64,000 nucleotides of DNA, from positions 84,487 through 148,486 of the forward strand of contig MFPS01000007.1 of assembly GCA_001782825.1 (NCBI GenBank), written 5' to 3'. The DNA is from Candidatus Magasanikbacteria bacterium RIFCSPHIGHO2_01_FULL_33_34. Lineage in GTDB: Bacteria; Patescibacteriota; Patescibacteriia; Magasanikbacterales; UBA922. Position numbers and translations under genes: made by a program. The stretch's first letter is position 1; each line of letters opens with the position of its first letter. The notes below the pieces were generated by a model, which was given only the letters and a program-made list of their open reading frames with translations, ran no database searches and was not told the origin of the DNA. Positions 49,773 to 61,547 of this stretch are shown here, one piece after another.

Positions 49773-51833
49773 CTACTCTACCAAGTCACCCTCGGCTTTA
49801 TTTTTTTCTGATTTGTATTTATTTAATATACTTTCAATCACTGGCTCACCCTCACCACCAAAATTAATGCCTTTTTCAGTGGCTTCATTTATTGTCGATA
49901 TTGCATCATCCATAGTCCTAAATACACTCTGCAAAAGAGCCAAGCGCCACCAACTTTCACCAATCGTTTCATCATCTTTTATGGCTCGCCTATACAATGC
50001 CTCTGCTTCATCAACTTTATCCAATTGAATCTTGATTCCAGCCAAGGTATAAATAAACTGCTGTCTTTTTGGAGACTTTTCTAAACCATCTTCCATAATC
50101 TTTTCTGCCTCAAGCAATAAGCCTTTATTTCCTGAAAGCGTAGCTGCTTCTTGGATTAACAAAGCTTGTTGAGAATGAATACGCAAATCCAATGGATGCA
50201 ATTTTCTATTCTTTTCTAATTCTTCAATAGATAATTGAAATAAAGCTTGAGCCAATTCTGGTTTCCCCGCTTGTACATATCCACGCAAAGATGAACTTAT
50301 AGTTCTGGTAACATCATTGCGAATATCATCAATATGCGGAGTTGGAATACTAACAGCTTTTTCATAAAGTGGTCTTATATCCTCCATACCATAAATCCCT
50401 CTCAAAACTATTAAAGTTGCCATATTGGCCCGAGCTGGATTTAAATTGGTTGCATAAATAAATAAAACCATAGTCAAAATAGAAACAACTGCAACTGGAA
50501 TAGAAATATTTTTATTTTTTGCATCTGCTATATTCTCAATGTCTTTATTCTTTATTCCCAAGATCTGACTATTTATCATCGCCAAAAAGAAAAAGAAATA
50601 TAAATAAGAAGTAGGGTTGTCAAATACTGATACAGTCTGCGCTAAATGGGCTATCAAAAAAGCCGAAGTTACAGCCAAAAGATGTATATCAAATCCATCT
50701 GAATTTTTTCTATATAATTTCCATATATAAAAAATAGCAACAAAAAATATTCCCAAATAAATTATAACACCAACAATCCCCCGTTCTGTCAAAGTATTAA
50801 GAACAATATTGTGAGCATTGTCAAACCAGGTTTCACGATAACTAAAATGTAAAAATTCTGCTTTATAATATTGATTAAAAGCAAAATAATAATTGCTAGG
50901 GCCCCAACCAAAAATTGGATAATCTTTCCAACCTTCAATCGCTATTTGCCAAGCCATAAACCTAGTCCCAAGAGTGCTATTTGAAGTATTCAATAATCTG
51001 CCAACAGTGGGAATACTCTTGATAAAACTAGTCTGTCTAAAACTAAATACAATACCAAAAAAAACTATTAAAAATACAGTCAACAATAATAAAAGTTTTC
51101 TAATCTTTGTATGTTTTTTGAGAGTAATAATATATGAAATAATCAAAATACCAATACCCACTATAAACGCTAATAAAGCTCCTCTGGAACCACTAAAAAA
51201 TATACCCAAAAAACCCAAAAAACCAACAATGCCCACAAATAACTTCCACCCCAACGACTTCTCTTTCATCAACATAAGCCAGCCCATAAAAGCCAAAAAT
51301 AATCCATAACCACCAACATAAATCGGATTGCCAAGTGTAGAGGCTGATCTATTTCCACTAGTATTTAATAAAAACTCCTGATCAAATTGTTGAATTAAAG
51401 CAATCCCCATCACAATCCCTCCAGCCAACAAAAAAGTTCTTAGCAACCATTGCCAATCGTCCCAATTGCGTACTACCGATGTAACCATCAAATAATACAA
51501 AACATAATGAGCTACAGTAAAAAATCCCAACATCCTTTCATGATTATCCCAAAAACTTCTGTACCAATCTAACCCAACAAAGGTTGAGATACCAAAACTA
51601 ATCAAAAATAACAAAATAACTATATTTAAAGGAGAATTTCGTATAATATATTTTTTCCAATCACTAGCCAAAAGAATAATATACAAGGCAAGAAGTACAA
51701 GAGTAAGCGATCTGAATATCACAATCTTTGGAACAATAAACGGAAAAATAAAATTTGTCGGAAAAAAAGCCAATGGTACAAAAAAAGTTAATCCAACCAC
51801 AATTTTAAATAATAATTCAATTCTTTTTTGCAT
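49773..51833 (-). CDS. O-antigen ligase/polymerase (Wzy_C) domain membrane protein fused to C-terminal TPR repeats
   Basis: FSGSRGALLAFIVGIGILI Wzy_C-type loop; about 12 TM helices; C-terminal ~250 aa TPR-like (AEALYRRAI..., AQALFQLSIEELEK...). Confidence 0.55.
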   Translation of the reverse strand: MQKRIELLFKIVVGLTFFVPLAFFPTNFIFPFIVPKIVIFRSLTLVLLALYIILLASDWKKYIIRNSPLNIVILLFLISFGISTFVGLDWYRSFWDNHERMLGFFTVAHYVLYYLMVTSVVRNWDDWQWLLRTFLLAGGIVMGIALIQQFDQEFLLNTSGNRSASTLGNPIYVGGYGLFLAFMGWLMLMKEKSLGWKLFVGIVGFLGFLGIFFSGSRGALLAFIVGIGILIISYIITLKKHTKIRKLLLLLTVFLIVFFGIVFSFRQTSFIKSIPTVGRLLNTSNSTLGTRFMAWQIAIEGWKDYPIFGWGPSNYYFAFNQYYKAEFLHFSYRETWFDNAHNIVLNTLTERGIVGVIIYLGIFFVAIFYIWKLYRKNSDGFDIHLLAVTSAFLIAHLAQTVSVFDNPTSYLYFFFFLAMINSQILGIKNKDIENIADAKNKNISIPVAVVSILTMVLFIYATNLNPARANMATLIVLRGIYGMEDIRPLYEKAVSIPTPHIDDIRNDVTRTISSSLRGYVQAGKPELAQALFQLSIEELEKNRKLHPLDLRIHSQQALLIQEAATLSGNKGLLLEAEKIMEDGLEKSPKRQQFIYTLAGIKIQLDKVDEAEALYRRAIKDDETIGESWWRLALLQSVFRTMDDAISTINEATEKGINFGGEGEPVIESILNKYKSEKNKAEGDLVE

Positions 51834-51840
51834 ACGAAAT

Positions 51841-51960
51841 ATTTAAACATTAAAACATATAAACATACAAACATATAAACATTTTACAAATCTTAAAATA
51901 CTCTACTAAAAATGTTTAAATGCTTATATGTTTGTATGTTTATATCTTAATCTATTGTGT
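51841..51960. repeat. TAAACAT-unit inverted-repeat array X (about 30-bp arms)
   Basis: Left arm ATATAAACATACAAACATATAAACATTTT; right arm AAAATGTTTAAATGCTTATATGTTTGTATGTTTATAT. Related arrays occur at 52611-52670 and 58795-58925. Confidence 0.5.
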
Positions 51961-52614
51961 AGTAGCTGAGTCTGGGTAAAGTTGATTAATTTTATTCTGT
52001 ACTTCTTGAGATTTTTCTGGATTATTACGATTATAAAATAATAATAATCTATTCAAAATATCAAAATTATTATTGGTTGTCGCCAAACCATTTAAATATG
52101 TTTGTTCTGCAGATGCCATATCTTGTAATTGAAATTCTTCAACCAAAGCAAGAGAAATATATAAGTCTGGATCTCCTGGAGATAACTCTATAGCCAATCT
52201 ATAATATTCTTTAGCAGATTTATAATCTTTTAGATTATTTTTATAAACTTCAGCAATATTTCTATAACCCAAAATATTATTATTCTGTAATATTATTGAT
52301 TGCCTAAAAGCCTCTACCGCCCCCTCATAATCTTCTAAAACAGTTTTAAGATTGCCAATAGCAATCCAAGTCTCCCAAATATCTGGACTCTCCAGATACA
52401 TTGCTTTAGTCTCATCAATTTTTACTTGTATTACCGCTCTGGTTGCCTCATCTTTTCCTTCTGGTATAGAAATATTCTCAAACGGATCAATCACTTTGTC
52501 AACCATTGCGCTATTATCTGTAATTTTTGCTTCTTTGTTATAAATATAATATCCAACCGCACCAATTAAAATGGCAATTATTATTATATATAATAGTATT
52601 TTTTTATTTTTCAT
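51952..52614 (-). CDS. TPR-repeat protein with N-terminal TM anchor
   Basis: 220 aa; LLYIIIIAILIGAVGYYIY TM; TPR-like helices (AVEAFRQSIILQNN, AKEYYRLAIELSPGD). Confidence 0.5.
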   Translation of the reverse strand: MKNKKILLYIIIIAILIGAVGYYIYNKEAKITDNSAMVDKVIDPFENISIPEGKDEATRAVIQVKIDETKAMYLESPDIWETWIAIGNLKTVLEDYEGAVEAFRQSIILQNNNILGYRNIAEVYKNNLKDYKSAKEYYRLAIELSPGDPDLYISLALVEEFQLQDMASAEQTYLNGLATTNNNFDILNRLLLFYNRNNPEKSQEVQNKINQLYPDSATTQ

Positions 52615-52670: not shown

Positions 52671-52715
52671 ACAAAAAAAAACAATCCCCTGGCTTGCGCC
52701 AGAGGAATTGTTTTT
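52671..52715. terminator. Intrinsic terminator downstream of the 1251-aa gene (hairpin flanked by A9 and T6)
   Basis: AAAAAAAAA-CAATCCCCTGGCTTGCGCCAGAGGAATTG-TTTTTT. Confidence 0.5.
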
Positions 52716-52759: not shown

Positions 52760-55700
52760 TTAGAGAGCAACTACAGTAGGTGTGGTTGAAGCTGAGCCTA
52801 AACCAGAAATCAAGAATCCATTTGTCCAGTCATTTGTAGTCGTAGCATGTGCGCTAAGATGTCTATCTGACCAGATAAAGTCATCATGTGTTTCACCGTC
52901 AACATTAGTTGCTTTTTCCATCAACAATGCAGGTGTACCACCTTCAGCAACAGAAGCGTCGCCACCCAATCTAGTGGAAACTGAAGCGCCTGATGCAGCA
53001 CCAGTTACAGTACCACGAAGAACATAAGTTCTAGGTGTACCTAGAGCAACTGTTCTAGCTTCACCACCTTGACCTGTACCACTTGAATCTGTATCAAATA
53101 GAGCTTCAAAGTATCCATTTGCATAAGCTGTTGTTGCAGAACTATACAATGACACTTCTGTCTCATCTGTTACATCTAATACTTCAACATTAGTTACAGT
53201 TGCAGTTGTAGTTGTCATATCAAATACAAATTTGTATAGATCAATATCGCTAGTATTAGCGGTTACTTTGAATTTATACAAATCAACTGAACCGTTAGAC
53301 AATGTTCCACCGACTGTAAGTTTTGTTACAGTTGGAACACCTCTATACATGTAGTTAGTATTTCCAGTTGGAGCAGTTGTACCAAGATACTCTACCGCAC
53401 CGCTTCCAGTTTGAGCACCTTTAGCAGTCATATCTCCAGCAGCAGTAATCTTGAAACCAAGTCTATGTCCGCCAACTGTTACATTTTGTGATGAACCAAT
53501 ATTACTCAAATTAGCTTTCAAGTACATTTTTTGTCCATCAACATCATCTTTGTTAACTACAAAGGCACCTGAGCTGAATTCTATTACTGGAGTAGTTGAA
53601 GTTGGAACAACTGAACCAACGACTACACCAGCTTCATTTTCAAGATACAACAAGTTGTAATCTAGGTAAGATGAAGATGCAGTGGCTGTAACGACTTGAG
53701 TGAATTTAACTCTCTCCATTTCTACATTTTCTGTAGTAGTAGCCAAGAAGTTAAATACAGCAAGAGTTGCGCCTTGAGTACCAGCAGCAAATAATTTTGC
53801 AGTTGGGTTTGAACTGTCAAGAGATGCTTGAACAACACCACCAGCAGTTCCCACTGTCATTGAATTTCCAGAAGCAGTATCAATTGATTCAGTTACAGTG
53901 TTGTTTGTACTAACACCAATAGCTGTTACAAAGTTTGATGTACTTACAGCCATATTGTGAGTTCCAGCTGTAGCGCCACCTGAGATGTCACCACGAACTT
54001 CTACTACCAATGATTTGCCTTTAGCAACTGTAAATTGGTCAGCACTGGAAAGATTGAAGGTATAATCTTCAGATCCACCGGTTGTACCTGTACCAGCGTT
54101 TACAACTGATAATTGTTCAAGTGTACCACTACTATTGAATGAATCACCATCTTTGTCTACCCATAGAGTAACATTTTGAATGTGATTAGTTGCAACATTA
54201 GCTGCATGTCTAACTTTGAACTGAGTAACTTTCAACGCTTCAGAAGATCCGGTAGCATCTAATTGTACTTTAGCAAAGGTTATACCACTTGTTCCAGGAG
54301 CAAATGTTTGTGCTGCAGGAGTAGATAATGTGGTTATACGCAATGCTGCTGTAGTAATAGTTCTTGCATTAGCTGCCACAGTACCTGAACCTGGATATAC
54401 TTCCTGTGTACTACCAGAAAGTTCATAGTCATCCCCACTATCAACACCTTTAGCAACAAAATTGTCAGCTTTTTGGTCAATAGCTACAGTAATAATATCA
54501 CCATTTGCTGGTGTTGAATCAATATTACCTTTCAAAGTAAGAATATTGTCTCCGACTGGAAGAGTCATTGTGTCAGTTGAAGTAGCATATCCTGGACTGG
54601 CAGCGCCAACTCCATCTACTCCACTTATCAATGCTTTGCCAGCTGAATCATACAATGTCAAAGCATCAAAAGCGGTTGGTACTGCTGTACCGGTACCGGT
54701 AACAGTAAGCTTGAACACTATAGTTGAAACATCAACTGCTTCACCAGTAACTCTGAAATTCCATGAACCAAGTTCTACACCATTGGCCGCTTCTGGCACA
54801 TTACCAGCTGGGACATTGTTTACTTTTGTAATATTCAATGTTCCAGGACCAACCTGAACAATGTTTGACATATCTGAAGCACTGTTTGTAGGCAATCTGT
54901 AAACATTGGTATTTAGTTCTCTAACAAGAACATGTGATGCTCTTTTAACATCCAAGTCCATGTTACGGGTTGTACCGTTAAGTACATCACCATAAACTCC
55001 ATACTGTTTGTTATTACCTTTTACTATTTTACAATCATCACCACAGCTTGTCAGATCAAAGCTAACGTATTTTCCATCCCATACACCATCAGCAATTTTA
55101 TTGCTATTGTATGTAAGGTGAATATTAGCAAAATCAGAAGCTGAAGCTGTACCTCTGTTATAAAGAGTAATTCTCTCTACTCTTCCATCTTGAGTAGCAG
55201 TAGAGATTTGTAAGTTAGCAAGATTTACTCCTGTTTCACCGACTCTCTTTGTTACTGTTCCAACTGAAGCGCCCTGAGTTACAGTGGAAGTTCCCAAAGT
55301 AATACTAGCATTCAAGCTAACTGGATTTCCATGTAATGGAAGAGAACCGACTACTGTTGAGGCTGTCTCAACTGAGTAAACCGCCAATGTTGGCACGTTA
55401 CCACCTGTTACAGTACCCATATCGCCAACAAGAGTATATGTTTTTGTTACTCCTGATGGGATTGTTAGATCTTCAGAAAAAGATACTAAGTGATCAGAGT
55501 TAAGTGTTTTACCAGCTTCATTCAATAAATTTCCATCTGGTTTAACAACATTAATTGTACTAAAATCACCATCAACTCCTACTCCACCACGAAGCACTTT
55601 CAATGTTTTGATTACTACATCACCGCCTGTGGCTGTGAAGTTAACCTTTGTGAAAGCTAAACGTGATTGATTGGAATAACCATAAGTTCCAGATGGAGTG

Positions 55701-56515
55701 TCAGAAGCCAAAGCTACTGTCAAAGTTCCAACTGTTCCAGTACCTGTTCCTGTTCCTGTTCCAGTACCAGTTCCTGTTCCAACTCCGCCTGCTCCTTGTG
55801 TAGGATCAGCGTAAAGACTAGCAGATGTTACACTACCAGAACCTTCAGATACAGAATCTAATACAGCTTGTGATACAACTTGTACGTCAGCCATATTGCG
55901 AACAGAACCGTCAACCATATAACGCATACCATCCATTACCTTATAAGTAGTACCGCCAGCAACTTTTACTAGCATACCATTATGAGGTACGGCTTCTGTA
56001 AGCTCAGCACCAGAAGTTGAGTAGTTTGGCCAGAAAACATCAGCGATGTCTACTACCTTACTAGCCCAGTTACTTCCATATAGAGCTGAAGCTACAGCTT
56101 CGCTACCAACTTTGGCAAGAACATTGCCAGGTTGAACAGCGTATACACTTGGTGAGATTTGAACCTTAACTAACATTGAGCCAGGTCTGTAGTTAACACC
56201 AAATGGGGCACTTGATGGTGCAGGGTATGCATCCACACAAGTGGTTGGGATTTCAACAACCCCAGAAAAATCACTGAACCATGTTTTGTACACAGTTGAG
56301 TGTGGGAAATACAAACGTTCCATGTTGCCATTTAGCAAGTACACTGCACTATTACCAGGCACCTTGAAAAGGTCTCCAGCTTCTAGTGTAGGACAAGCTG
56401 CTTGTGCATTTGCAACCACTGGTACAAGAGCAGCAACGCCCATGCTCCAAAGGATTGTAAGCACAACTACTGACCATGTAAATGTTTTCTTTCCTAATCT
56501 TATTACATTCGTCAT
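52760..56515 (-). CDS. Giant secreted cell-surface protein (1251 aa), Thr/Gly/Val/Ser-rich, with a (GT)n run and N-terminal ~45-aa repeats; putative S-layer or adhesin-like glycoprotein
   Basis: Signal peptide MTNVIRLGKKTFTWSVVVLTILWSMGVAALVPVVANAQA; GVGTGTGTGTGTGTGTGTVG; about 18% Thr; three N-terminal repeats of the type also found in the 44477 protein. Confidence 0.55.
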   Translation of the reverse strand: MTNVIRLGKKTFTWSVVVLTILWSMGVAALVPVVANAQAACPTLEAGDLFKVPGNSAVYLLNGNMERLYFPHSTVYKTWFSDFSGVVEIPTTCVDAYPAPSSAPFGVNYRPGSMLVKVQISPSVYAVQPGNVLAKVGSEAVASALYGSNWASKVVDIADVFWPNYSTSGAELTEAVPHNGMLVKVAGGTTYKVMDGMRYMVDGSVRNMADVQVVSQAVLDSVSEGSGSVTSASLYADPTQGAGGVGTGTGTGTGTGTGTGTVGTLTVALASDTPSGTYGYSNQSRLAFTKVNFTATGGDVVIKTLKVLRGGVGVDGDFSTINVVKPDGNLLNEAGKTLNSDHLVSFSEDLTIPSGVTKTYTLVGDMGTVTGGNVPTLAVYSVETASTVVGSLPLHGNPVSLNASITLGTSTVTQGASVGTVTKRVGETGVNLANLQISTATQDGRVERITLYNRGTASASDFANIHLTYNSNKIADGVWDGKYVSFDLTSCGDDCKIVKGNNKQYGVYGDVLNGTTRNMDLDVKRASHVLVRELNTNVYRLPTNSASDMSNIVQVGPGTLNITKVNNVPAGNVPEAANGVELGSWNFRVTGEAVDVSTIVFKLTVTGTGTAVPTAFDALTLYDSAGKALISGVDGVGAASPGYATSTDTMTLPVGDNILTLKGNIDSTPANGDIITVAIDQKADNFVAKGVDSGDDYELSGSTQEVYPGSGTVAANARTITTAALRITTLSTPAAQTFAPGTSGITFAKVQLDATGSSEALKVTQFKVRHAANVATNHIQNVTLWVDKDGDSFNSSGTLEQLSVVNAGTGTTGGSEDYTFNLSSADQFTVAKGKSLVVEVRGDISGGATAGTHNMAVSTSNFVTAIGVSTNNTVTESIDTASGNSMTVGTAGGVVQASLDSSNPTAKLFAAGTQGATLAVFNFLATTTENVEMERVKFTQVVTATASSSYLDYNLLYLENEAGVVVGSVVPTSTTPVIEFSSGAFVVNKDDVDGQKMYLKANLSNIGSSQNVTVGGHRLGFKITAAGDMTAKGAQTGSGAVEYLGTTAPTGNTNYMYRGVPTVTKLTVGGTLSNGSVDLYKFKVTANTSDIDLYKFVFDMTTTTATVTNVEVLDVTDETEVSLYSSATTAYANGYFEALFDTDSSGTGQGGEARTVALGTPRTYVLRGTVTGAASGASVSTRLGGDASVAEGGTPALLMEKATNVDGETHDDFIWSDRHLSAHATTTNDWTNGFLISGLGSASTTPTVVAL

Positions 56516-56809
56516 AAATTATTTATTCGCCTTATCCAGAACGCAAGCTTACCTTAAAGGTAGCCGTCTCCAGACTAAGACATATTTTTACAGAGCACAT
56601 AATGACCCTATATTGGACCTCGACCTTTGTTATATGCGATTTATACGGTTTGCCCTCCTTGACAAATGCCAAGGATCACATACTGTATGGCACAAGTTTG
56701 TCCATAATTTTGAACAAACCTAGCTATACAGTCCCCGTATACACCGAATTAAATTAAAATTTAATTAGTTAATTAATTGATTCTCATCAGCCTGATTAGT
56801 CTTTTTTAT

Positions 56810-58195
56810 TTATTCAACTATTTTTACTGCTTCTGTACTACTGACTTTTACTGTTTCAATATTATTAATCTTGCTCGCATCAATCGCTTCTTGGACTACT
56901 AGATCTTTGGCATCTTGTACAACCACTTTTTCAACTATATTAACGGCAATGGATGCCTCATCTACTACAACTTTTGTTTCCGTCTTTATCGTATCAAGTT
57001 CAATTATTTTCTGTAATGCTGCGGTAAAATTATCCTGTTCAATCAATATCTTTACATCAGCTTTAGTTGTCTCGGCTATTTTATTTGCTTCACCAATCTT
57101 TTGTTCTGCTACCACGACTTTTTGTTCAGCATCAACTACTTTTTTCTCGGTCTCCACAGCTTTAATCACTATGTCTTGAGTACTACTGGTTGTAGACTGT
57201 TTACTATTCATTTCAGTACTACTAGCTGTCTCACCAACTGCACCTTCTATACCAATAATATTTTTTGTGGTTGTAGTTGTCTTTATAATAGCAATGGTAC
57301 TACTAGCCTTCTCACTGGTTTCAACTACTGTTACATCTAGTTTTAATACTCCTTCTGTCAATTTGTCCAATCTGCGATTGATCGTATCAGTTACTTCTTT
57401 TTTTGTGATAACACTTTCTTTGACGTCCTCTTTGTTAACATTCTCTACTAGAACACCGACTGCTTTGATACCAGCATTTTGTATCAAAGCTTCTACTTCA
57501 ACCACATCTTTTTTAAGTTGTACTTTGGTTACCTCTGGAGCTATATCCTTAAGCTCAATAGTTCTTTCTTTTTCTTTTGGCTCTGTCAATGAATCTAATA
57601 TCTCACTTGTCTTTTTCTCAACTACTTTGGCAACCGCTACAACTTTCTCCGGAGACTTACCATTAACCTTGTCCATACTATCCTGAGTTGATTCAATTTT
57701 TTCCTTCAAAGATTTGATGGCTACAGTTGCTTGTTCGGTTGATTCTGATCTTTGATATTCATCAACTCTTGAAGAAGCGTGCTTCAATATAGTAGTTACT
57801 TCATCTTCATCTGATCCAATCACAGATGCCACCAAAAGTTCTGTTGATTCGGCTGCCATCTTGACTCCATACAATGCCTCGCCTGGCAAACTATCATATG
57901 ACGCGCTTACACTAGCAATCCAACCACTCACAGCTACCGCTCCTACCAATAATATAGTGAGACTTGATCTGGCCATTGATAATACTCTACCAGAAACAAA
58001 TACATGCAAACCTTCACTAATAGTATCAAACACACTTGTCTTTACCATCTCTTCATTCACTTCAGTATTTGTTATATTACATTTGATATCTTCAATCAGC
58101 TTGACACGAGTTTGCGCAACCCAAGAGCGGTCTGGATTTAACCGACCGTTTTCATTTTTTATATTCTTGAGTTGTTTTACAAGCTTTCGGCTCAT
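56810..58195 (-). CDS. Single-pass membrane protein, putative anti-sigma factor partner of the upstream ECF sigma
   Basis: Start codon 10 nt after the sigma stop. About 75-aa cytoplasmic N-terminus, TM helix LTILLVGAVAVSGWIASVSA, then a long E/K/V/T-rich extracytoplasmic region. Confidence 0.4.
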   Translation of the reverse strand: MSRKLVKQLKNIKNENGRLNPDRSWVAQTRVKLIEDIKCNITNTEVNEEMVKTSVFDTISEGLHVFVSGRVLSMARSSLTILLVGAVAVSGWIASVSASYDSLPGEALYGVKMAAESTELLVASVIGSDEDEVTTILKHASSRVDEYQRSESTEQATVAIKSLKEKIESTQDSMDKVNGKSPEKVVAVAKVVEKKTSEILDSLTEPKEKERTIELKDIAPEVTKVQLKKDVVEVEALIQNAGIKAVGVLVENVNKEDVKESVITKKEVTDTINRRLDKLTEGVLKLDVTVVETSEKASSTIAIIKTTTTTKNIIGIEGAVGETASSTEMNSKQSTTSSTQDIVIKAVETEKKVVDAEQKVVVAEQKIGEANKIAETTKADVKILIEQDNFTAALQKIIELDTIKTETKVVVDEASIAVNIVEKVVVQDAKDLVVQEAIDASKINNIETVKVSSTEAVKIVE

Positions 58196-58204
58196 AATAT
58201 AATA

Positions 58205-58768
58205 TTATTTTTTCTTTGGGCTTTTAGGCTCAACAAATTCTTTTAATTTTTTGGTAGCGCGATAGATTATTATTCGTACATTTGTTGCGCTGATATCCAA
58301 TATGCCTGCAATATCTTTGGTTGACAAACCTTCTATATATCTCAAATGTATTACTTCCTGATACTCATGTTTTAATTTTTTTATAGATTTTATCAAATCT
58401 TGCTGTTCTTCTTTTACTTCAATATCTATTCGCAAATCATTACCAACCAATGTCTCAGTCGCCACATCAATCAAACACTCATTCTTTCTGGCGCGCTCAC
58501 GATACACATCAATTATTCTATTTCTAGCAATTCTATAAACCAATTGTCTAAAACTGGTAATATCTCTCGGTTTCTCAATCAAATAATCCCAAGTTTTTAA
58601 AAAGACTTCAGAAGATATATCTTCAGCATCCTCACGATTGGATAATTTAAAAAAAACAAACCTATAAATCGGTTGAATATAAAAATCATACAATTTAGCA
58701 AATGCTTCTGTATCTCTCTTGCTGATCACTTTGTAAACTAATAATTTCTCTTCTATATGAGTCTTCAT
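58205..58768 (-). CDS. ECF-type sigma-70 family RNA polymerase sigma factor
   Basis: Region 2 (FAKLYDFYIQPIYRFVFFKLSNREDAEDISSEVFLKTWDYL) and region 4 HTH (LSTKDIAGILDISATNVRIIIYRATKKLKE). The track start at 58870 overlaps a palindromic array; Met35 chosen. Confidence 0.75.
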   Translation of the reverse strand: MKTHIEEKLLVYKVISKRDTEAFAKLYDFYIQPIYRFVFFKLSNREDAEDISSEVFLKTWDYLIEKPRDITSFRQLVYRIARNRIIDVYRERARKNECLIDVATETLVGNDLRIDIEVKEEQQDLIKSIKKLKHEYQEVIHLRYIEGLSTKDIAGILDISATNVRIIIYRATKKLKEFVEPKSPKKK

Positions 58769-58794
58769 ATATATAGACGGGAAAATGGTTAAAA

Positions 58795-58925
58795 TGTTAC
58801 ACTCTATGGCATTTAAACATGTAAGCATATAAACATTTAAACATATGGTGATTTCATCAATATGTTTCAACCCACATGTTTAAATGTTTGTATGTTTTAA
58901 TGTTTATATGTTTTAAATGCCAAAA
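58795..58925. repeat. TAAACAT-unit inverted-repeat array Z, immediately upstream of the ECF sigma gene
   Basis: GGCATTTAAACATGTAAGCATATAAACATTTAAACATATGG ... CATGTTTAAATGTTTGTATGTTTTAATGTTTATATGTTTTAAATGCC. Confidence 0.5.
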
Positions 58926-59307
58926 AAAATCGGAAATCCCGAAAGTGTACAGATACGAGTATACTATATATATGGTAAAGAAGCAAGTGGAAAGAGTTAA
59001 TTGTGCCATGTTTAATACACACTATCATTACCCCGCAACAGGCGGGAATCTATTAATTTACTCTCTATAAGCTATATTTCCGCCTATGTGAGAAAGACAA
59101 ATTATGTCTTGAAGAAATCGGCATAAATTATATTTATAAGTAAAAATAACCAAAAAAGCAATACTATTCAACAAAACCTCAAAATACACTAAAAAGTTAT
59201 TTGCAAATAAATTTTTACTGATTACACTAGCTAATATAGCTATATTTGTATAGACTATTGTATACAAATATGATTTTATATTATTTTTCAATCGCTTAAA
59301 TTAGCTA

Positions 59308-59353
59308 TTTATTAATATTTTGTATAGACTAGTCTATACAAAATATTAATAAA
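59308..59353. promoter_or_regulatory. Perfect 46-bp palindrome (TTATTAATATTTTGTATAGACT|AGTCTATACAAAATATTAATAA), candidate operator upstream of the HTH gene
   Basis: Verified base by base. The related half-site palindrome ATTTGTATAGACTATTGTATACAAAT lies at 59244-59269. Confidence 0.6.
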
Positions 59354-59460
59354 AACACCTAAATAACCAAAAAATCTACAAACAAGTATTGACAAAAACC
59401 TCATTATATGCTATAATTGTATATACTATTCTGTACAAAAAGTATAAATATTACTAAATT

Positions 59461-59799
59461 ATGACAGATTTGCCTACAATTGATCAATCCAAAGAAATAG
59501 TAAGAGTGTCAATTTCTGAAGCTGCTCGTTTATTTGGAGTGAATGCCCAGACTATACGTAGGGCAATCCAATCTGGCGAGATTACTTATGTGGTGGTAGC
59601 TGGTAGATACAAGCTAAACTTTGAAAGCCTTGTCAGATGGTCTCAAACCAAAACTACAGTTAAAAACAAATCAGAAAAGTTTGGTATCGGGCAATATGTG
59701 GATAAATGGAAGATAAAGAACACACTCTACTCCCCTAGCACCAAGAGCATAAAAACATCTAAACATAAAAACATAAAAACATCAGAACCGTCAGCCTAA
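59461..59799 (+). CDS. Helix-turn-helix DNA-binding protein of the excisionase/MerR-like 'excise' family
   Basis: VSISEAARLFGVNAQTIRRAIQSGEITYVVVAGRYKLNFESLVRW follows the excisionase-family DNA-binding pattern. 112 aa; Lys/Ser-rich C-terminal tail encoded by an (AAAACATA)x3 repeat. Confidence 0.5.
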   Translation: MTDLPTIDQSKEIVRVSISEAARLFGVNAQTIRRAIQSGEITYVVVAGRYKLNFESLVRWSQTKTTVKNKSEKFGIGQYVDKWKIKNTLYSPSTKSIKTSKHKNIKTSEPSA

Positions 59800-59815: not shown

Positions 59816-59953
59816 ATTAAAAGTTGCATCATTTTAGAAAATAAAAAAAGACGTCGCGAGGCTGGGAGCCAAGCGACGTCGTAGGGGATCTCTGAAGACC
59901 CCGTTAGGATCACCTTCGGTGAGGGTTACTCACCTTGGGTGAATCACACTGCG

Positions 59954-60943
59954 TCATGGGTAGACGCAAGTGTTTGTGCCCACGTCGCAGTATGGCGACG
60001 GTGGACACGAATCTCCACACGGCAAGGCCGTGTAAAGGGTGCAGTGCCAGTCTTCATAGCACTGCACGCAGGTGCCATCCAGGCACTTGCGTTTGTCCGA
60101 CGGACAGTCGGAGTGCCCACTGCACTCCGGTTCCGGCTTGTCGCAGGTGCACTCACCGGCGACGCAGGAGTAGCCGTCGTCGCAGACGACCAGTTCGTGC
60201 TGGCAACCTAGAGTTGCGTCGCACGAATCGGTCGTACAGCTGTCACCGTCGTCGCACCCACCCAATGGGGGGGCAACTTGGTCACACAAACATGTGTCCG
60301 GGTTTTGTGCCCAGACACCGTTGCACGCGTCCTCGTCATCACAGACGAGGGGCGCGCAGCTCGGCGGAGCGTCACACTCCGGAACACCGGCATCCGGTGT
60401 CCCAAGGGGACATGTCGGACACGTCGGTTCCGGAGTGCATCCACTGGAAGTCGAGCAAAACTCTCCTTCGTTGCAGATTGTGCTGTCGGGGACCTGGAAA
60501 CACCCAGTACCCTCGACACACACGCCGACGGTGCAGACGAACGGGTCGTTGCAAGCGGGCGGTTCGCCCGGACGACATTCGCCGTCCAGACAGCGCTCCG
60601 CGCCGTTGCAGAACAACCCGTCGTTGCAGTCCAGATCCATTTCACAGGTCTCCGGACAACCGACACACGTGGGCGGACCCACGCACTCGTTGCGACTCTC
60701 GTCGCAGGTCATGCCGTTTTGACACAGGTCACCGGTGTGGGCACATTCGCCCACTCCGATACAGTACTCCACGCCATTACAGAACAACCCGTCCTGCGGA
60801 CAATCGCAAGCGTTACCGCCTGCATCATCCGCCGAACCAGCGTCAAGGGTAGAATTGCCGTTTGGCAACTCCACCCCGAAGTGGTCACGGCCCTCACCGC
60901 AAGCGGCGAGAGCCAAGAAAGCAAGAATGAGGATTCTCATCAT
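59954..60943 (-). CDS. Cysteine-rich secreted lipoprotein (about 16% Cys) with repeated DGLFCNG.E.C / CDDGDSC-type modules
   Basis: Signal peptide plus lipobox (LALAAC-G); repeats DGLFCNGVEYC, DGLFCNGAERC, CDDEDACNG, CDDGDSCTTDSCD. 329 aa; high GC3. Confidence 0.5.
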   Translation of the reverse strand: MMRILILAFLALAACGEGRDHFGVELPNGNSTLDAGSADDAGGNACDCPQDGLFCNGVEYCIGVGECAHTGDLCQNGMTCDESRNECVGPPTCVGCPETCEMDLDCNDGLFCNGAERCLDGECRPGEPPACNDPFVCTVGVCVEGTGCFQVPDSTICNEGEFCSTSSGCTPEPTCPTCPLGTPDAGVPECDAPPSCAPLVCDDEDACNGVWAQNPDTCLCDQVAPPLGGCDDGDSCTTDSCDATLGCQHELVVCDDGYSCVAGECTCDKPEPECSGHSDCPSDKRKCLDGTCVQCYEDWHCTLYTALPCGDSCPPSPYCDVGTNTCVYP

Positions 60944-60964
60944 TTTCTTTTCTTTCTGCCACCC

Positions 60965-61423
60965 TTAGCGGGTGGCATAGCAGATGATACCGGTGACGAG
61001 AGCCGACGCGCCTGCTCCGGCCGCCGCGAACTTCCACGTGGCGTCGAACCAGACGTCGACGCGAGAGGCCGAAACCTCCACGTCGTTGGGGTAGCGGATG
61101 CTGCCGTAGGCAGCACCTCCTGCTGTTCCGGCGAGACCGCCGAGAGCCATTGCTCCCAGACAGCCCCGCTTCTGCGCAGGTACCTTGACCGTGGTCGTGT
61201 CCGTGATGGGCACGACCAATTCGACGTCACAGTCCCCGTCAGACGGGCACTGCACCTGGCGGTCAAAGACCGCTTCGCCGTTGGCGGTCACTCCGTCGCT
61301 GGTGTCAAGCATCGTGCTCGAGACCACCGGCCTGGCGGTGTGCACCGCACAACCGCTGAGGATGTTGACCACAAGGGCCAACGCGAGGCCGAAAACGGCC
61401 AGAAACAAAAGATCCTTCTTCAT
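60965..61423 (-). CDS. Small lipoprotein (Gly/Ala-rich C-terminus)
   Basis: MKKDLLFLAVFGLALALVVNILSGC lipobox; SD AGGAGAGAG 5 nt upstream of ATG. 152 aa. Confidence 0.45.
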   Translation of the reverse strand: MKKDLLFLAVFGLALALVVNILSGCAVHTARPVVSSTMLDTSDGVTANGEAVFDRQVQCPSDGDCDVELVVPITDTTTVKVPAQKRGCLGAMALGGLAGTAGGAAYGSIRYPNDVEVSASRVDVWFDATWKFAAAGAGASALVTGIICYATR

Positions 61424-61547
61424 GTCTCTCTCCTGTTTCCCGACATCTTATCGGGATAGTTTCTGTTTGGTTGAAAGGTTGAAAAGAAAGGTCACCCTGC
61501 CTGGTGGTTAAACTGGGCAAAATGACCAGCGATGTGGCTGATGAAGA

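What the first reader, a model, noticed from the sequence alone, without database searches (positions are those of the whole stretch)
52760..58768. ECF sigma, putative anti-sigma and a 1251-aa Thr/Gly-rich surface protein form a contiguous unit
An ECF sigma gene (58205-58768) is followed 10 nt later by a single-pass membrane protein with a long extracytoplasmic coiled region (56810-58195). Then come an about 290-bp leader and the largest gene in the window, a signal-peptide-bearing protein that is about 18% Thr and contains a (GT)9 run. This resembles cell-surface signalling pairs that control expression of a major envelope protein. The sigma and anti-sigma pair may couple envelope stress or glycan status to S-layer-like protein production. 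The Thr-rich protein is also the most obvious substrate for the GT-C O-glycosylation machinery upstream.
Basis: partly seen in the sequence, partly recalled or inferred. Interest (0 to 1): 0.6.

Follow-up and report, generated by a model that had tools for sequence, protein, structure and literature searches.

The report
ECF sigma operon with surface protein
In an uncultured ultra-small (Magasanikbacteria-type) bacterium, a stress-type sigma factor, its membrane partner and a giant cell-surface protein form one transcription unit that is conserved in more than 40 related genomes. It gives a testable handle on how these bacteria build and regulate their outer coat.

Summary
The three genes exist at the stated coordinates. 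Two details need correcting: Thr is 12.9%, not about 18%, and the run is (GT)8, not (GT)9.

Of 49 related loci with enough upstream DNA, 46 have an ECF sigma and 44 have a DUF5667 membrane protein directly upstream of the big gene, on the same strand. Forty also carry a divergent excisionase-type HTH gene. A Wzy_C/TPR gene lies downstream in 45 of 48 loci.

A conserved ECF promoter (TGTAAC-N16-CGTCT) lies 7 nt before the sigma ATG in 40 loci, so the sigma mRNA is predicted to be leaderless. In a side clade the promoter sits just before the anti-sigma-like gene instead.

The 290-nt leader holds no ECF promoter. It is a conserved structured RNA: a long P1 hairpin closed by ACUGURYGGC/GCCAUACAGU, followed by P3 and P4 modules with covariation. 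No terminator lies between sigma and the big gene, and a strong one follows the big gene in 37 of 46 loci.

The 461-aa protein has no known anti-sigma domain. However, three unrelated DUF5667 proteins also sit immediately downstream of ECF sigmas.

The big protein consists of a signal peptide, a portable about 200-aa module, a GT linker and about eight beta-sandwich domains.

Verdict: a real, conserved ECF-headed operon for an S-layer-like protein. The proposed promoter mechanism is wrong in detail, and the S-layer and glycosylation claims are inferred.

The parts
58775..58801 (-). ECF-type promoter TGTAAC-N16-CGTCT. The -10 CGTC ends 7 nt before the sigma ATG, so a leaderless mRNA is predicted.
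   Evidence: It is the only GTAAC-N15-17-CGTC match in the 64-kb window. The same motif, with exactly 16-nt spacing, is present at the same place in 40 of 48 loci. A PWM scan of 1.2 Mb finds strong matches only upstream of sigma, or between sigma and the anti-sigma-like gene in a side clade.
58205..58768 (-). ECF sigma factor, 187 aa.
   Evidence: Pfam Sigma70_r2, r4_2 and Sigma70_ECF match, and TIGR02937 is above its cut-off. The best solved relatives are 6dxo_A (E 1.4e-13), which I recall to be sigma-BldN (the tool lists it only as an ECF-subfamily sigma factor), and SigW 5wuq.
56810..58195 (-). Single-pass membrane protein, 461 aa, the putative anti-sigma. It has a conserved about 35-aa cytoplasmic N-terminus (NPDR-W--NR), a TM segment at about residues 78-98, a DUF5667 domain at residues 102-194, and then coiled coil with Ser/Thr-rich stretches.
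   Evidence: DUF5667 scores 24.2 bits against a gathering cut-off of 27 in this copy, but 26 of 31 family members match it. Topology comes and the alignment. No known anti-sigma domain was found. Other DUF5667 proteins lie directly after ECF sigmas.
56682..56732 (-). Leader hairpin P1. The 5' arm is ACUGUAUAGC and the 3' arm is the nearly invariant GCCAUACAGU, with a variable inner stem.
   Evidence: 33 of 35 loci fold into one long hairpin of 49-126 nt, with median z -6.7 against shuffles. Inner stems differ in sequence but stay paired. No U-tract follows it, so it is not a terminator. There is no Rfam match.
56604..56628 (-). Leader element AAAGGUCGA plus the short P3 hairpin.
   Evidence: AAGGTCG is nearly invariant in 32 aligned leaders, and the hairpin that follows varies in sequence while keeping its pairing.
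56529..56580 (-). Leader module P4. It has an outer stem (CUUAxxxxG / CxxxAUAAG), an internal loop with conserved GAC and GCG(Y), and an inner hairpin. It ends about 14-18 nt before the ATG.
   Evidence: All 9 RNAalifold pairs show compensatory changes. All 28 covariance-model matches in 1.12 Mb lie just upstream of the big gene, including 5 loci that were not in the seed.
52760..56515 (-). 1251-aa secreted surface protein. It has a signal peptide (residues 1-37), a portable N-terminal module (38-245), a disordered (GT)8 linker (246-261) and about eight beta-sandwich domains (262-1251).
   Evidence: It has no Pfam, NCBIfam or PDB sequence match. 206 homologues were found; those that carry a source name are mostly Magasanikbacteria, and most are about 1250 aa. 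AF2 halves give pLDDT 93.7 and 91.2. Foldseek finds only generic Ig-like arrays. The N-terminal module is found in 3720 cluster representatives, fused to many different passenger domains.
52685..52706 (-). Intrinsic terminator after the big gene (9-bp stem with 6 GC pairs, then a T-run).
   Evidence: Found. Equivalent strong terminators follow the big gene in 37 of 46 loci, whereas sigma-to-big holds only weak hits inside coding sequence.
51952..52614 (-). Membrane-anchored TPR protein, 220 aa, a conserved downstream neighbour.
   Evidence: Pfam TPR families match. It is present downstream in 32 of 48 loci.
49773..51833 (-). Wzy_C (O-antigen ligase / O-oligosaccharyltransferase superfamily) membrane protein with C-terminal TPR, 686 aa.
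   Evidence: Pfam Wzy_C E 2e-23. The best solved relative is 7tpg, a 'cell surface polysaccharide polymerase/ligase'. It is downstream in 45 of 48 loci.
59461..59799 (+). Divergent excisionase-family HTH protein, 112 aa, a conserved neighbour of the operon.
   Evidence: TIGR01764 scores 31.2 against a cut-off of 28.8, and Pfam HTH_17 matches. It is present divergently in 40 of 49 loci.
59245..59439 (.). Three copies of a 24-bp palindromic operator-like site, TTTGTATAGAC-TAG-TCTATACAAA, just upstream of the HTH gene.
   Evidence: Copies lie at 59245-59268, 59319-59342 and 59416-59439. Similar perfect palindromes occur in the same intergenic region of at least 10 other loci.

Best explanation
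This is an autoregulated ECF sigma / anti-sigma operon whose last and largest gene encodes the major secreted surface (S-layer-like) protein of a Magasanikbacteria-type CPR bacterium.

Proposed mechanism:
1. The sigma factor reads its own promoter (TGTAAC-N16-CGTCT) and makes a leaderless transcript that runs through sigma and the DUF5667 membrane protein.
2. With no terminator in between, the transcript continues through a 290-nt structured leader into the 1251-aa gene and stops at a strong terminator.
3. The DUF5667 protein holds sigma at the membrane through its short conserved cytoplasmic N-terminus. It releases sigma when its long extracytoplasmic part registers a change in the envelope.
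4. Coat-protein synthesis is thereby coupled to the state of the envelope.
5. The conserved leader RNA (P1, P3, P4) adds a post-transcriptional layer: processing, stabilisation or translational control of the coat-protein message.
6. The coat protein is exported by Sec. It is held on the cell by its portable N-terminal module, stands off on a flexible GT linker, and is probably glycosylated by the adjacent Wzy_C/TPR enzyme and the glycan cluster.

Shown: gene identities, synteny, promoter, terminator pattern, RNA structure conservation and domain architecture.

Inferred: sigma-anti-sigma binding, read-through, the signal sensed, S-layer formation and glycosylation.
For: Synteny:
- Sigma is present in 46 of 49 loci and DUF5667 in 44 of 49, directly upstream of the big gene and co-oriented. 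The loci span MAGs labelled Magasanik-, Uhr-, Komeili- and Parcubacteria.

Promoter:
- The motif has invariant 16-nt spacing in 40 of 48 loci, 7 nt before the ATG.
- It is unique in the window and absent elsewhere in 1.2 Mb, except between sigma and the anti-sigma-like gene in L050, L052, L030 and L038. In every clade it therefore feeds anti-sigma and then the big gene.

Transcription unit:
- The sigma and anti-sigma-like genes are 9 nt apart here and overlap in several loci (e.g. L001, L003, L007), which suggests translational coupling.
- There is no terminator between sigma and the big gene, and a strong one follows the big gene in 37 of 46 loci.
- The gap from the anti-sigma stop codon to P1 is 28 nt or less in 9 of 33 loci. 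That leaves no intergenic room for a promoter upstream of P1 in those loci.

Anti-sigma identity:
- DUF5667 proteins elsewhere lie immediately after ECF sigmas. One, with a 4-nt overlap, is in a genome that carries cytochrome c maturation genes, which I read as a non-CPR organism.

Leader and protein:
- The leader structure is supported.
- The protein architecture is supported.
- The downstream region encodes Wzy_C, DUF2079, PMT_2, four GT4 enzymes and sugar epimerases/dehydratases.
Against: - No known anti-sigma domain is detectable in the 461-aa protein, and no complex model could be made.
- A long, structured 5' leader is also what an independently transcribed, highly expressed coat gene would carry. 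A housekeeping promoter inside the 3' end of the anti-sigma gene, or between P1 and P3, cannot be excluded.
- No fixed -35/-10 was seen relative to P1, but AT-rich DNA hides weak promoters.
- Only flanks of about 20 kb, not whole genomes, were scanned for further ECF sites.
- Nothing shows lattice formation or abundance. Foldseek's nearest folds are adhesins and pilins as much as anything else.
Confidence: 0.6

Rival explanations
1. These are neighbours, not one operon. The big gene is transcribed mainly from its own housekeeping promoter and carries a long stabilising 5' UTR, as many S-layer genes do. The sigma/anti-sigma pair controls only itself or distant targets. The conserved adjacency reflects shared envelope function or genome streamlining.
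For: There is no ECF motif in the leader. The leader is long and highly structured. Many loci have 80-250 nt between the anti-sigma stop codon and P1, where a promoter could sit. The invariant GCCATACAGT also occurs alone upstream of sigma in L044 and L054, which hints at a DNA-level site.
Against: No terminator separates the genes in any locus class. In 9 of 33 loci there is no intergenic room upstream of P1. No conserved -35/-10 lies at a fixed distance from P1. In a side clade the ECF promoter has moved to sit directly before the anti-sigma-like gene while the order anti-sigma, big gene is kept.
Confidence: 0.3
2. The large protein is not an S-layer subunit. It is a host-attachment adhesin or fibre of an episymbiotic cell, and the ECF system switches it on at host contact.
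For: The best structural matches are adhesin and pilin Ig-like arrays (PrgB, integrin legs, BcpA, EbpB). Patescibacteria are described as host-dependent epibionts (abstracts listed). The anchor module is shared with enzymes and other surface proteins.
Against: The family is strikingly uniform in length (about 1250 aa), and usually one relative of the big protein was recovered per genome. The C-terminal half is predicted as a compact multi-domain body (pTM 0.81) rather than beads on a string. It heads a large glycan cluster, as S-layer glycoprotein loci do.
Confidence: 0.25
3. The 461-aa DUF5667 protein is not an anti-sigma factor. It is a co-expressed envelope scaffold, for example a coiled-coil spacer between the membrane and the surface layer.
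For: No anti-sigma domain was found by HMM or PDB profile search. The cytoplasmic conserved part is only about 35 aa. Most of the protein is extracytoplasmic coiled coil with Ser/Thr-rich stretches.
Against: DUF5667 proteins sit immediately after ECF sigmas in varied contexts, including one locus with no large surface gene and one in a genome with cytochrome c maturation genes. This is the standard signature of cognate anti-sigmas. Class II and class III anti-sigma domains are equally short or unrecognisable by sequence (PMC6101532).
Confidence: 0.15

Closest known systems
Sigma-BldN / RsbN of Streptomyces venezuelae (ECF sigma plus single-pass anti-sigma, controlling the chaplin and rodlin surface-sheath proteins; PMC6101532)
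   Same: An ECF sigma is paired with a single-pass membrane anti-sigma that has no sequence similarity to classical anti-sigma domains and carries a large extracytoplasmic part. Its target is a self-assembling cell-surface coat. The window's sigma has BldN as its best named NCBIfam hit (TIGR02952, 115.7 bits, below the cut-off). Its best solved relative is 6dxo_A, which I recall to be sigma-BldN (the tool lists it only as an ECF-subfamily sigma factor). The RsbN authors also speculate about feedback from coat assembly.
   Different: There is no detectable similarity between RsbN and the 461-aa protein. RsbN has a 117-aa cytoplasmic region, against about 75 aa here. The paper reports RsbN as apparently limited to Streptomyces. 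The chaplin and rodlin genes are small and are separate target genes (from memory), not in the sigma operon. The sigma is below the BldN family cut-off, so it is not a member.
Bacillus subtilis SigW/RsiW-type ECF operons (autoregulated, TGAAAC-N16-CGTA promoters; promoter consensus from my own knowledge)
   Same: An autoregulated sigma/anti-sigma operon, a promoter of AAC-N16-CGT type, and a single-pass anti-sigma. SigW is the second-best solved relative (5wuq, E 3.4e-13).
   Different: RsiW has a zinc-binding class I anti-sigma domain, and none is found here. The promoter here gives a predicted leaderless mRNA. The operon carries a giant structural gene as cargo.
S-layer glycoprotein loci of Firmicutes (Geobacillus stearothermophilus SgsE with the slg cluster and the Wzy_C-type O-oligosaccharyltransferase WsaB; from my own knowledge)
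   Same: A large secreted Thr/Ser-rich structural protein lies next to a glycan-synthesis cluster that includes a Wzy_C-family membrane enzyme. S-layer genes there have long 5' UTRs.
   Different: There is no SLH or CWB2 anchor. The anchor is a CPR-type portable module. No ECF sigma operon heads those loci. O-glycosylation here is untested.
FecI/FecR-type cell-surface signalling
   Same: An ECF sigma is paired with a membrane-spanning regulator that reports on the outside of the cell.
   Different: There is no FecR domain, no TonB-dependent transducer and no sign of an outer membrane. It is not a member.

Membership tests
ECF (group IV) sigma-70 factors | Only the sigma2 and sigma4 domains are present, in a protein of about 170-200 aa. 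| tested here: met
   Sigma70_r2 spans residues 27-94 and r4_2 spans residues 123-175. TIGR02937 scores 84.9 against a cut-off of 42.9.
ECF (group IV) sigma-70 factors | An own-operon promoter of AAC-N16/17-CGT type (autoregulation). | tested here: met
   TGTAAC-N16-CGTCT lies at 58775-58801 and is conserved in 40 of 48 loci. Actual use of the promoter by this sigma was not tested.
ECF (group IV) sigma-70 factors | A co-transcribed cognate anti-sigma gene lies directly downstream. | tested here: inconclusive
   A membrane protein is always directly downstream (44 of 49 loci), and other DUF5667 proteins follow ECF sigmas. Binding was not tested.
BldN family (TIGR02952) | Score above the curated equivalog cut-off. 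| tested here: not met
   115.7 bits against a cut-off of 206.45.
Class I anti-sigma factors (ASD / zf-HC2, RskA, RsdA) | A recognisable N-terminal anti-sigma domain, often with HxxxCxxC. | tested here: not met
   No such Pfam family matches in any of 31 family members. The cytoplasmic part has a single Cys.
Class III anti-sigma (RsbN) | Sequence or structure similarity to RsbN residues 1-91. | tested here: not met
   No PDB sequence hit, either with the family profile or with residues 1-78.
DUF5667 (PF18915) | Pfam gathering score. | tested here: inconclusive
   The window copy scores 24.2 against 27, so it is below the cut-off. However, 26 of 31 aligned relatives match, with a best E of 1.2e-10.
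S-layer proteins | A secreted, abundant protein that self-assembles into a 2-D lattice on the cell. | not testable with these tools
   Only the signal peptide and the multi-domain beta architecture are shown.
S-layer proteins | A known wall-anchoring module (SLH, CWB2). | tested here: not met
   There is no Pfam hit, even at E of 10 or less. Instead there is a portable module shared by 3720 representative proteins.
FecI/FecR cell-surface signalling | A FecR-type regulator and a TonB-dependent transducer. | tested here: not met
   Neither domain is present in the unit or its neighbours.
Wzy_C O-oligosaccharyltransferases (PglL / WsaB type) | A Wzy_C domain. | tested here: met
   PF04932, E 2e-23.
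Wzy_C O-oligosaccharyltransferases (PglL / WsaB type) | Transfer of glycan to protein Ser/Thr. | not testable with these tools
   Wzy_C alone does not separate ligases, polymerases and O-OTases. The best solved relative is a polysaccharide polymerase/ligase.
Known RNA families (Rfam 15) | A match at the gathering score. | tested here: not met
   There is no match in the window. The only hit on the leader is a chance snoRNA match at E 2.2.

The most novel reading that the evidence does not exclude
The operon is a coat-homeostasis circuit specific to CPR bacteria.

- A previously uncharacterised class of anti-sigma factor (DUF5667, with a minimal cytoplasmic sigma-binding segment of about 35 aa) reaches through the wall. 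It reports the assembly or glycosylation state of the surface layer to an ECF sigma that directly transcribes the layer's structural gene.
- The conserved about 230-nt leader (P1, P3, P4, with invariant GCCAUACAGU, AAGGUCG, GAC and GCG) is a new cis-regulatory RNA. It would be a ligand or protein sensor, or a defined processing site, that sets how much coat protein is made from the read-through transcript.
Probability: 0.25. Interest if true: 0.8.

Novelty: new variant of a known kind. Interest (0 to 1): 0.55.

Why it matters
CPR/Patescibacteria are a large fraction of bacterial diversity. Microscopy papers describe them as having a distinctive envelope with a surface layer, yet almost nothing is known about which proteins build it or how it is regulated.

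This locus offers several concrete things:
- A candidate structural protein family, with high-confidence models.
- A candidate portable surface-anchor module, found in thousands of CPR proteins.
- A defined ECF promoter with a predicted leaderless start.
- An uncharacterised anti-sigma-like family (DUF5667), for which I found no paper, that also occurs outside this unit and, in one case, in a genome with cytochrome c maturation genes that I read as non-CPR.
- A new structured RNA leader.

Each can be tested by heterologous expression, without culturing the organism.

Tried and rejected
- Searched for an ECF promoter in the leader and found none. My first 28-nt pattern was mis-spaced by one base and missed even the true site.
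- Asked whether P1 is an intrinsic terminator. Rejected, because no U-tract follows it in any locus.
- Looked for a fixed sigma-70-like -35/-10 upstream of P1. No position-specific conservation was found.
- Ran RNAalifold on the whole 3' leader alignment. It gave no structure because the alignment is full of gaps. Per-module analysis worked.
- Treated the HTH gene as the mark of a mobile element, and the GC-rich block at 59.9-61.5 kb as an assembly chimera. Rejected. The HTH is a conserved neighbour in 40 of 49 loci, and the GC-rich block with the same genes is present in the closest independent MAG, L006.
- Searched Pfam, NCBIfam and PDB sequences for the big protein and its parts. Nothing was found.
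- Ran a homologue search with the DUF5667 region profile.
- The first related-loci scan, with the divergent alignment, failed.
- Literature searches for DUF5667, for ECF sigma factors in Parcubacteria or Patescibacteria, and for S-layer protein with Patescibacteria and cryo-electron microscopy gave nothing relevant.
- One preprint states that S-layer proteins were predicted in Patescibacteria, without details I could check.
- The resemblance between the HTH operator half-site (TTGTATAGAC) and the P1 arm (ACTGTATGGC) does not hold in other loci. I judged it coincidental.

Full report
**1. What is there**

The window is about 30% G+C. Homologues of its proteins that carry a source name are mostly from Candidatus Magasanikbacteria MAGs, which belong to the CPR/Patescibacteria. 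Three ORFs lie head to tail on the minus strand.

- Sigma (58205-58768): a 187-aa protein with Sigma70_r2 and r4_2. It passes the ECF superfamily model TIGR02937. Its nearest solved relatives are 6dxo_A, which I recall to be sigma-BldN, and SigW.
- Membrane protein (56810-58195): a 461-aa protein that starts nine bases after the sigma stop codon. It has one hydrophobic segment at about residues 78-98, a net-positive N-terminus and a sub-threshold DUF5667 match directly after the membrane segment.
- Leader (56516-56809): 294 nt.
- Big gene (52760-56515): 1251 codons.

Thr is 12.9%, not 18%. The repeat is (GT)8. The gap between sigma and the membrane-protein gene is 9 nt.

**2. The unit is conserved**

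A scan of one genome per species returned 72 loci with relatives of the big protein. I called ORFs in them and searched with the window's proteins and a DUF5667 profile. Among 49 loci with at least 2.6 kb of upstream DNA:

- 46 have the ECF sigma within 3 kb upstream on the same strand.
- 44 have a DUF5667-type membrane protein directly before the big gene.
- 40 have a divergent excisionase-family HTH gene, the homologue of window 59461-59799.

Downstream, a Wzy_C/TPR membrane protein follows in 45 of 48 loci and a small TPR protein in 32 of 48. The loci carry labels from Magasanik-, Uhr-, Komeili- and Parcubacteria. The conserved module is therefore: HTH (divergent), then sigma, DUF5667 protein and big protein, then TPR protein and Wzy_C.

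**3. Promoter**

TGTAACATTTTAACCATTTTCCCGTCT lies immediately upstream of the sigma ATG, at 58775-58801. GTAAC-N15-17-CGTC occurs once in the 64-kb window.

In 40 of 48 loci the same motif is present with exactly 16 nt between GTAAC and CGTC. The start codon follows CGTC by 7 nt in nearly all of them. For ECF promoters this places the transcription start at or next to the A of the ATG, so the mRNA would be leaderless. This step is inferred from the usual distance between the -10 element and +1.

This fits a genome that barely uses Shine-Dalgarno sequences: only 3 of 48 genes have even a weak one.

A weight matrix built from the 40 sites, run over 1.2 Mb, found no further strong site with one informative exception. 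In a divergent clade (L050, L052, L030, L038) the motif lies between sigma and the DUF5667 gene, 9-17 nt before that gene's ATG. In every clade the ECF promoter therefore feeds the DUF5667 gene and whatever follows it.

**4. The leader holds no ECF promoter; it is a structured RNA**

Aligned leaders show three elements.

- P1. This is a hairpin of 49-126 nt whose base is ACUGURYGGC paired with the nearly invariant GCCAUACAGU. Its interior differs completely between loci but is always paired. 33 of 35 loci fold this way, with median z -6.7. In the window it lies at 56682-56732.
- AAAGGUCGA with the short P3 hairpin (56604-56628).
- P4. Its outer stem shows compensatory changes in all nine pairs. 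It has an internal loop with conserved GAC and GCG, plus an inner hairpin.

A covariance model of P4 found 28 matches in 1.12 Mb. All of them lie just upstream of the big gene, and five are in loci not used to build the model. Rfam has nothing like it.

P1 is not a terminator, because no U-run follows it.

**5. Transcription unit**

A strong GC-rich terminator follows the big gene in the window (52685-52706) and in 37 of 46 loci. Between the sigma start and the big gene there are only weak hits inside coding sequence.

The distance from the DUF5667 stop codon to P1 is 28 nt or less in 9 of 33 loci. No -35/-10 is conserved relative to P1.

The simplest reading is one transcript from the ECF promoter to the terminator, with the leader acting after transcription. 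A second promoter inside the anti-sigma gene or within the leader is not excluded.

**6. Is the 461-aa protein an anti-sigma?**

No zinc-finger, RskA or RsdA domain was found in any of 31 family members. PDB searches with the family profile and with residues 1-78 gave no anti-sigma factor.

That test is too strict, however. Class II and class III anti-sigma domains are short or unrecognisable by sequence (PMC6101532).

Positive evidence:
- A conserved 35-aa cytoplasmic segment.
- Single-pass topology.
- Tight or overlapping gene junctions.
- Three unrelated DUF5667 proteins, looked up in their own contigs, each lie immediately after an ECF sigma. One is in a genome that carries cytochrome c maturation genes, which I read as a non-CPR organism, and overlaps its sigma gene by 4 nt.

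I therefore rate it a probable anti-sigma of an uncharacterised class.

**7. The big protein**

It has no Pfam, NCBIfam or PDB sequence match. The 206 homologues found are nearly all 1200-1300 aa.

AlphaFold2 on two halves, with 94-sequence alignments, gave pLDDT 93.7 (pTM 0.63) and 91.2 (pTM 0.81). The models show an alpha/beta N-terminal module, a disordered GT linker, and then about eight beta-sandwich domains. Foldseek against the PDB finds only generic Ig-like arrays, with TM below 0.3.

The N-terminal module (residues 38-245) matched 3720 cluster representatives in an exhaustive search. The matched proteins range from 195 to 2178 aa, and the module sits at either end. In 69 of them it is fused to fn3, beta-helix, GH113, trypsin-like, PQQ-propeller, CAP and other extracellular domains. 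This is the behaviour of a surface-anchoring module.

That the protein forms an S-layer is inferred, not shown.

**8. Glycosylation link**

Directly downstream lie the Wzy_C/TPR protein, DUF2079, a PMT_2 (GT-C) enzyme, four GT4 transferases and sugar epimerases/dehydratases. Wzy_C includes protein O-oligosaccharyltransferases, but also ligases and polymerases. The nearest solved relative is a polysaccharide polymerase/ligase.

The substrate relationship is plausible, and the synteny supports it (45 of 48 loci), but it is untested.

**9. Comparison and verdict**

The closest functional analogue is sigma-BldN/RsbN of Streptomyces. There, an ECF sigma and an atypical single-pass anti-sigma control the surface-sheath proteins (PMC6101532). 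Membership in that family fails: the sigma is below the family cut-off and there is no similarity to RsbN.

This is not FecI/FecR signalling.

I classify the finding as a new variant of a known kind: an ordinary ECF logic carrying unusual cargo. What is unusual is the giant coat-protein gene inside the operon, a leaderless start, an uncharacterised anti-sigma family and a new structured leader.

Confidence that the unit is a real, conserved, co-regulated module is high. Confidence in ECF-driven read-through into the big gene is moderate, at about 0.6.

Noticed in passing
window 59900-61500 (ORFs 59954-60943 minus strand, 60965-61423 minus strand): A block of 60% G+C sits in a 30% G+C genome. 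It encodes a Cys-rich secreted 329-aa protein and a 152-aa protein. The closest independent MAG (L006) has the same GC-rich block and homologues (152-aa protein, E 1e-47) at the same place, so it is not an assembly chimera. Cys-rich relatives also lie upstream in L014, L007 and L009.
   Followed up: partly
window 59245-59268, 59319-59342, 59416-59439; HTH gene 59461-59799 (+): Three copies of a 24-bp palindrome (TTTGTATAGAC-TAG-TCTATACAAA) lie upstream of a divergent excisionase-family HTH gene. The gene is conserved next to the operon in 40 of 49 loci. Similar perfect palindromes occur in at least 10 other loci. It is probably an autoregulatory operator. Its relation to the sigma operon is unknown.
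   Followed up: partly
L044 7565-7574 and L054 3892-3901: A second, isolated copy of the invariant leader decamer GCCATACAGT lies upstream of the sigma gene, without the partner arm of P1. This hints that the decamer may also be read at the DNA level or by a protein.
   Followed up: no
whole window (48 gene starts): Only 3 of 48 genes have even a weak Shine-Dalgarno-like motif. Starts are preceded by A/T-rich sequence (consensus near AATTATG), so translation initiation here appears to be largely independent of Shine-Dalgarno sequences.
   Followed up: partly
window 58810-58910: A 39-nt imperfect inverted repeat (85% complementary) and tandem ATGTTTAAATGTTT units lie just upstream of the ECF promoter. 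They could be a further regulatory site or simple AT-rich repeats.
   Followed up: no
L075 3223-5931: In another organism an ECF sigma is followed by two consecutive DUF5667 proteins (209 and 418 aa) and no giant surface gene. The sigma/DUF5667 pair therefore also exists without this cargo.
   Followed up: no
window 1-48300: Nearly the whole rest of the window, mostly on the minus strand, is ORFs of 170-610 aa, of which I annotated only 37.3-48.3 kb: four GT4 transferases, a PMT_2 GT-C enzyme, DUF2079 and epimerases/dehydratases. The rest (1-37.3 kb) was not examined. The surface-protein operon sits at its upstream end.
   Followed up: partly
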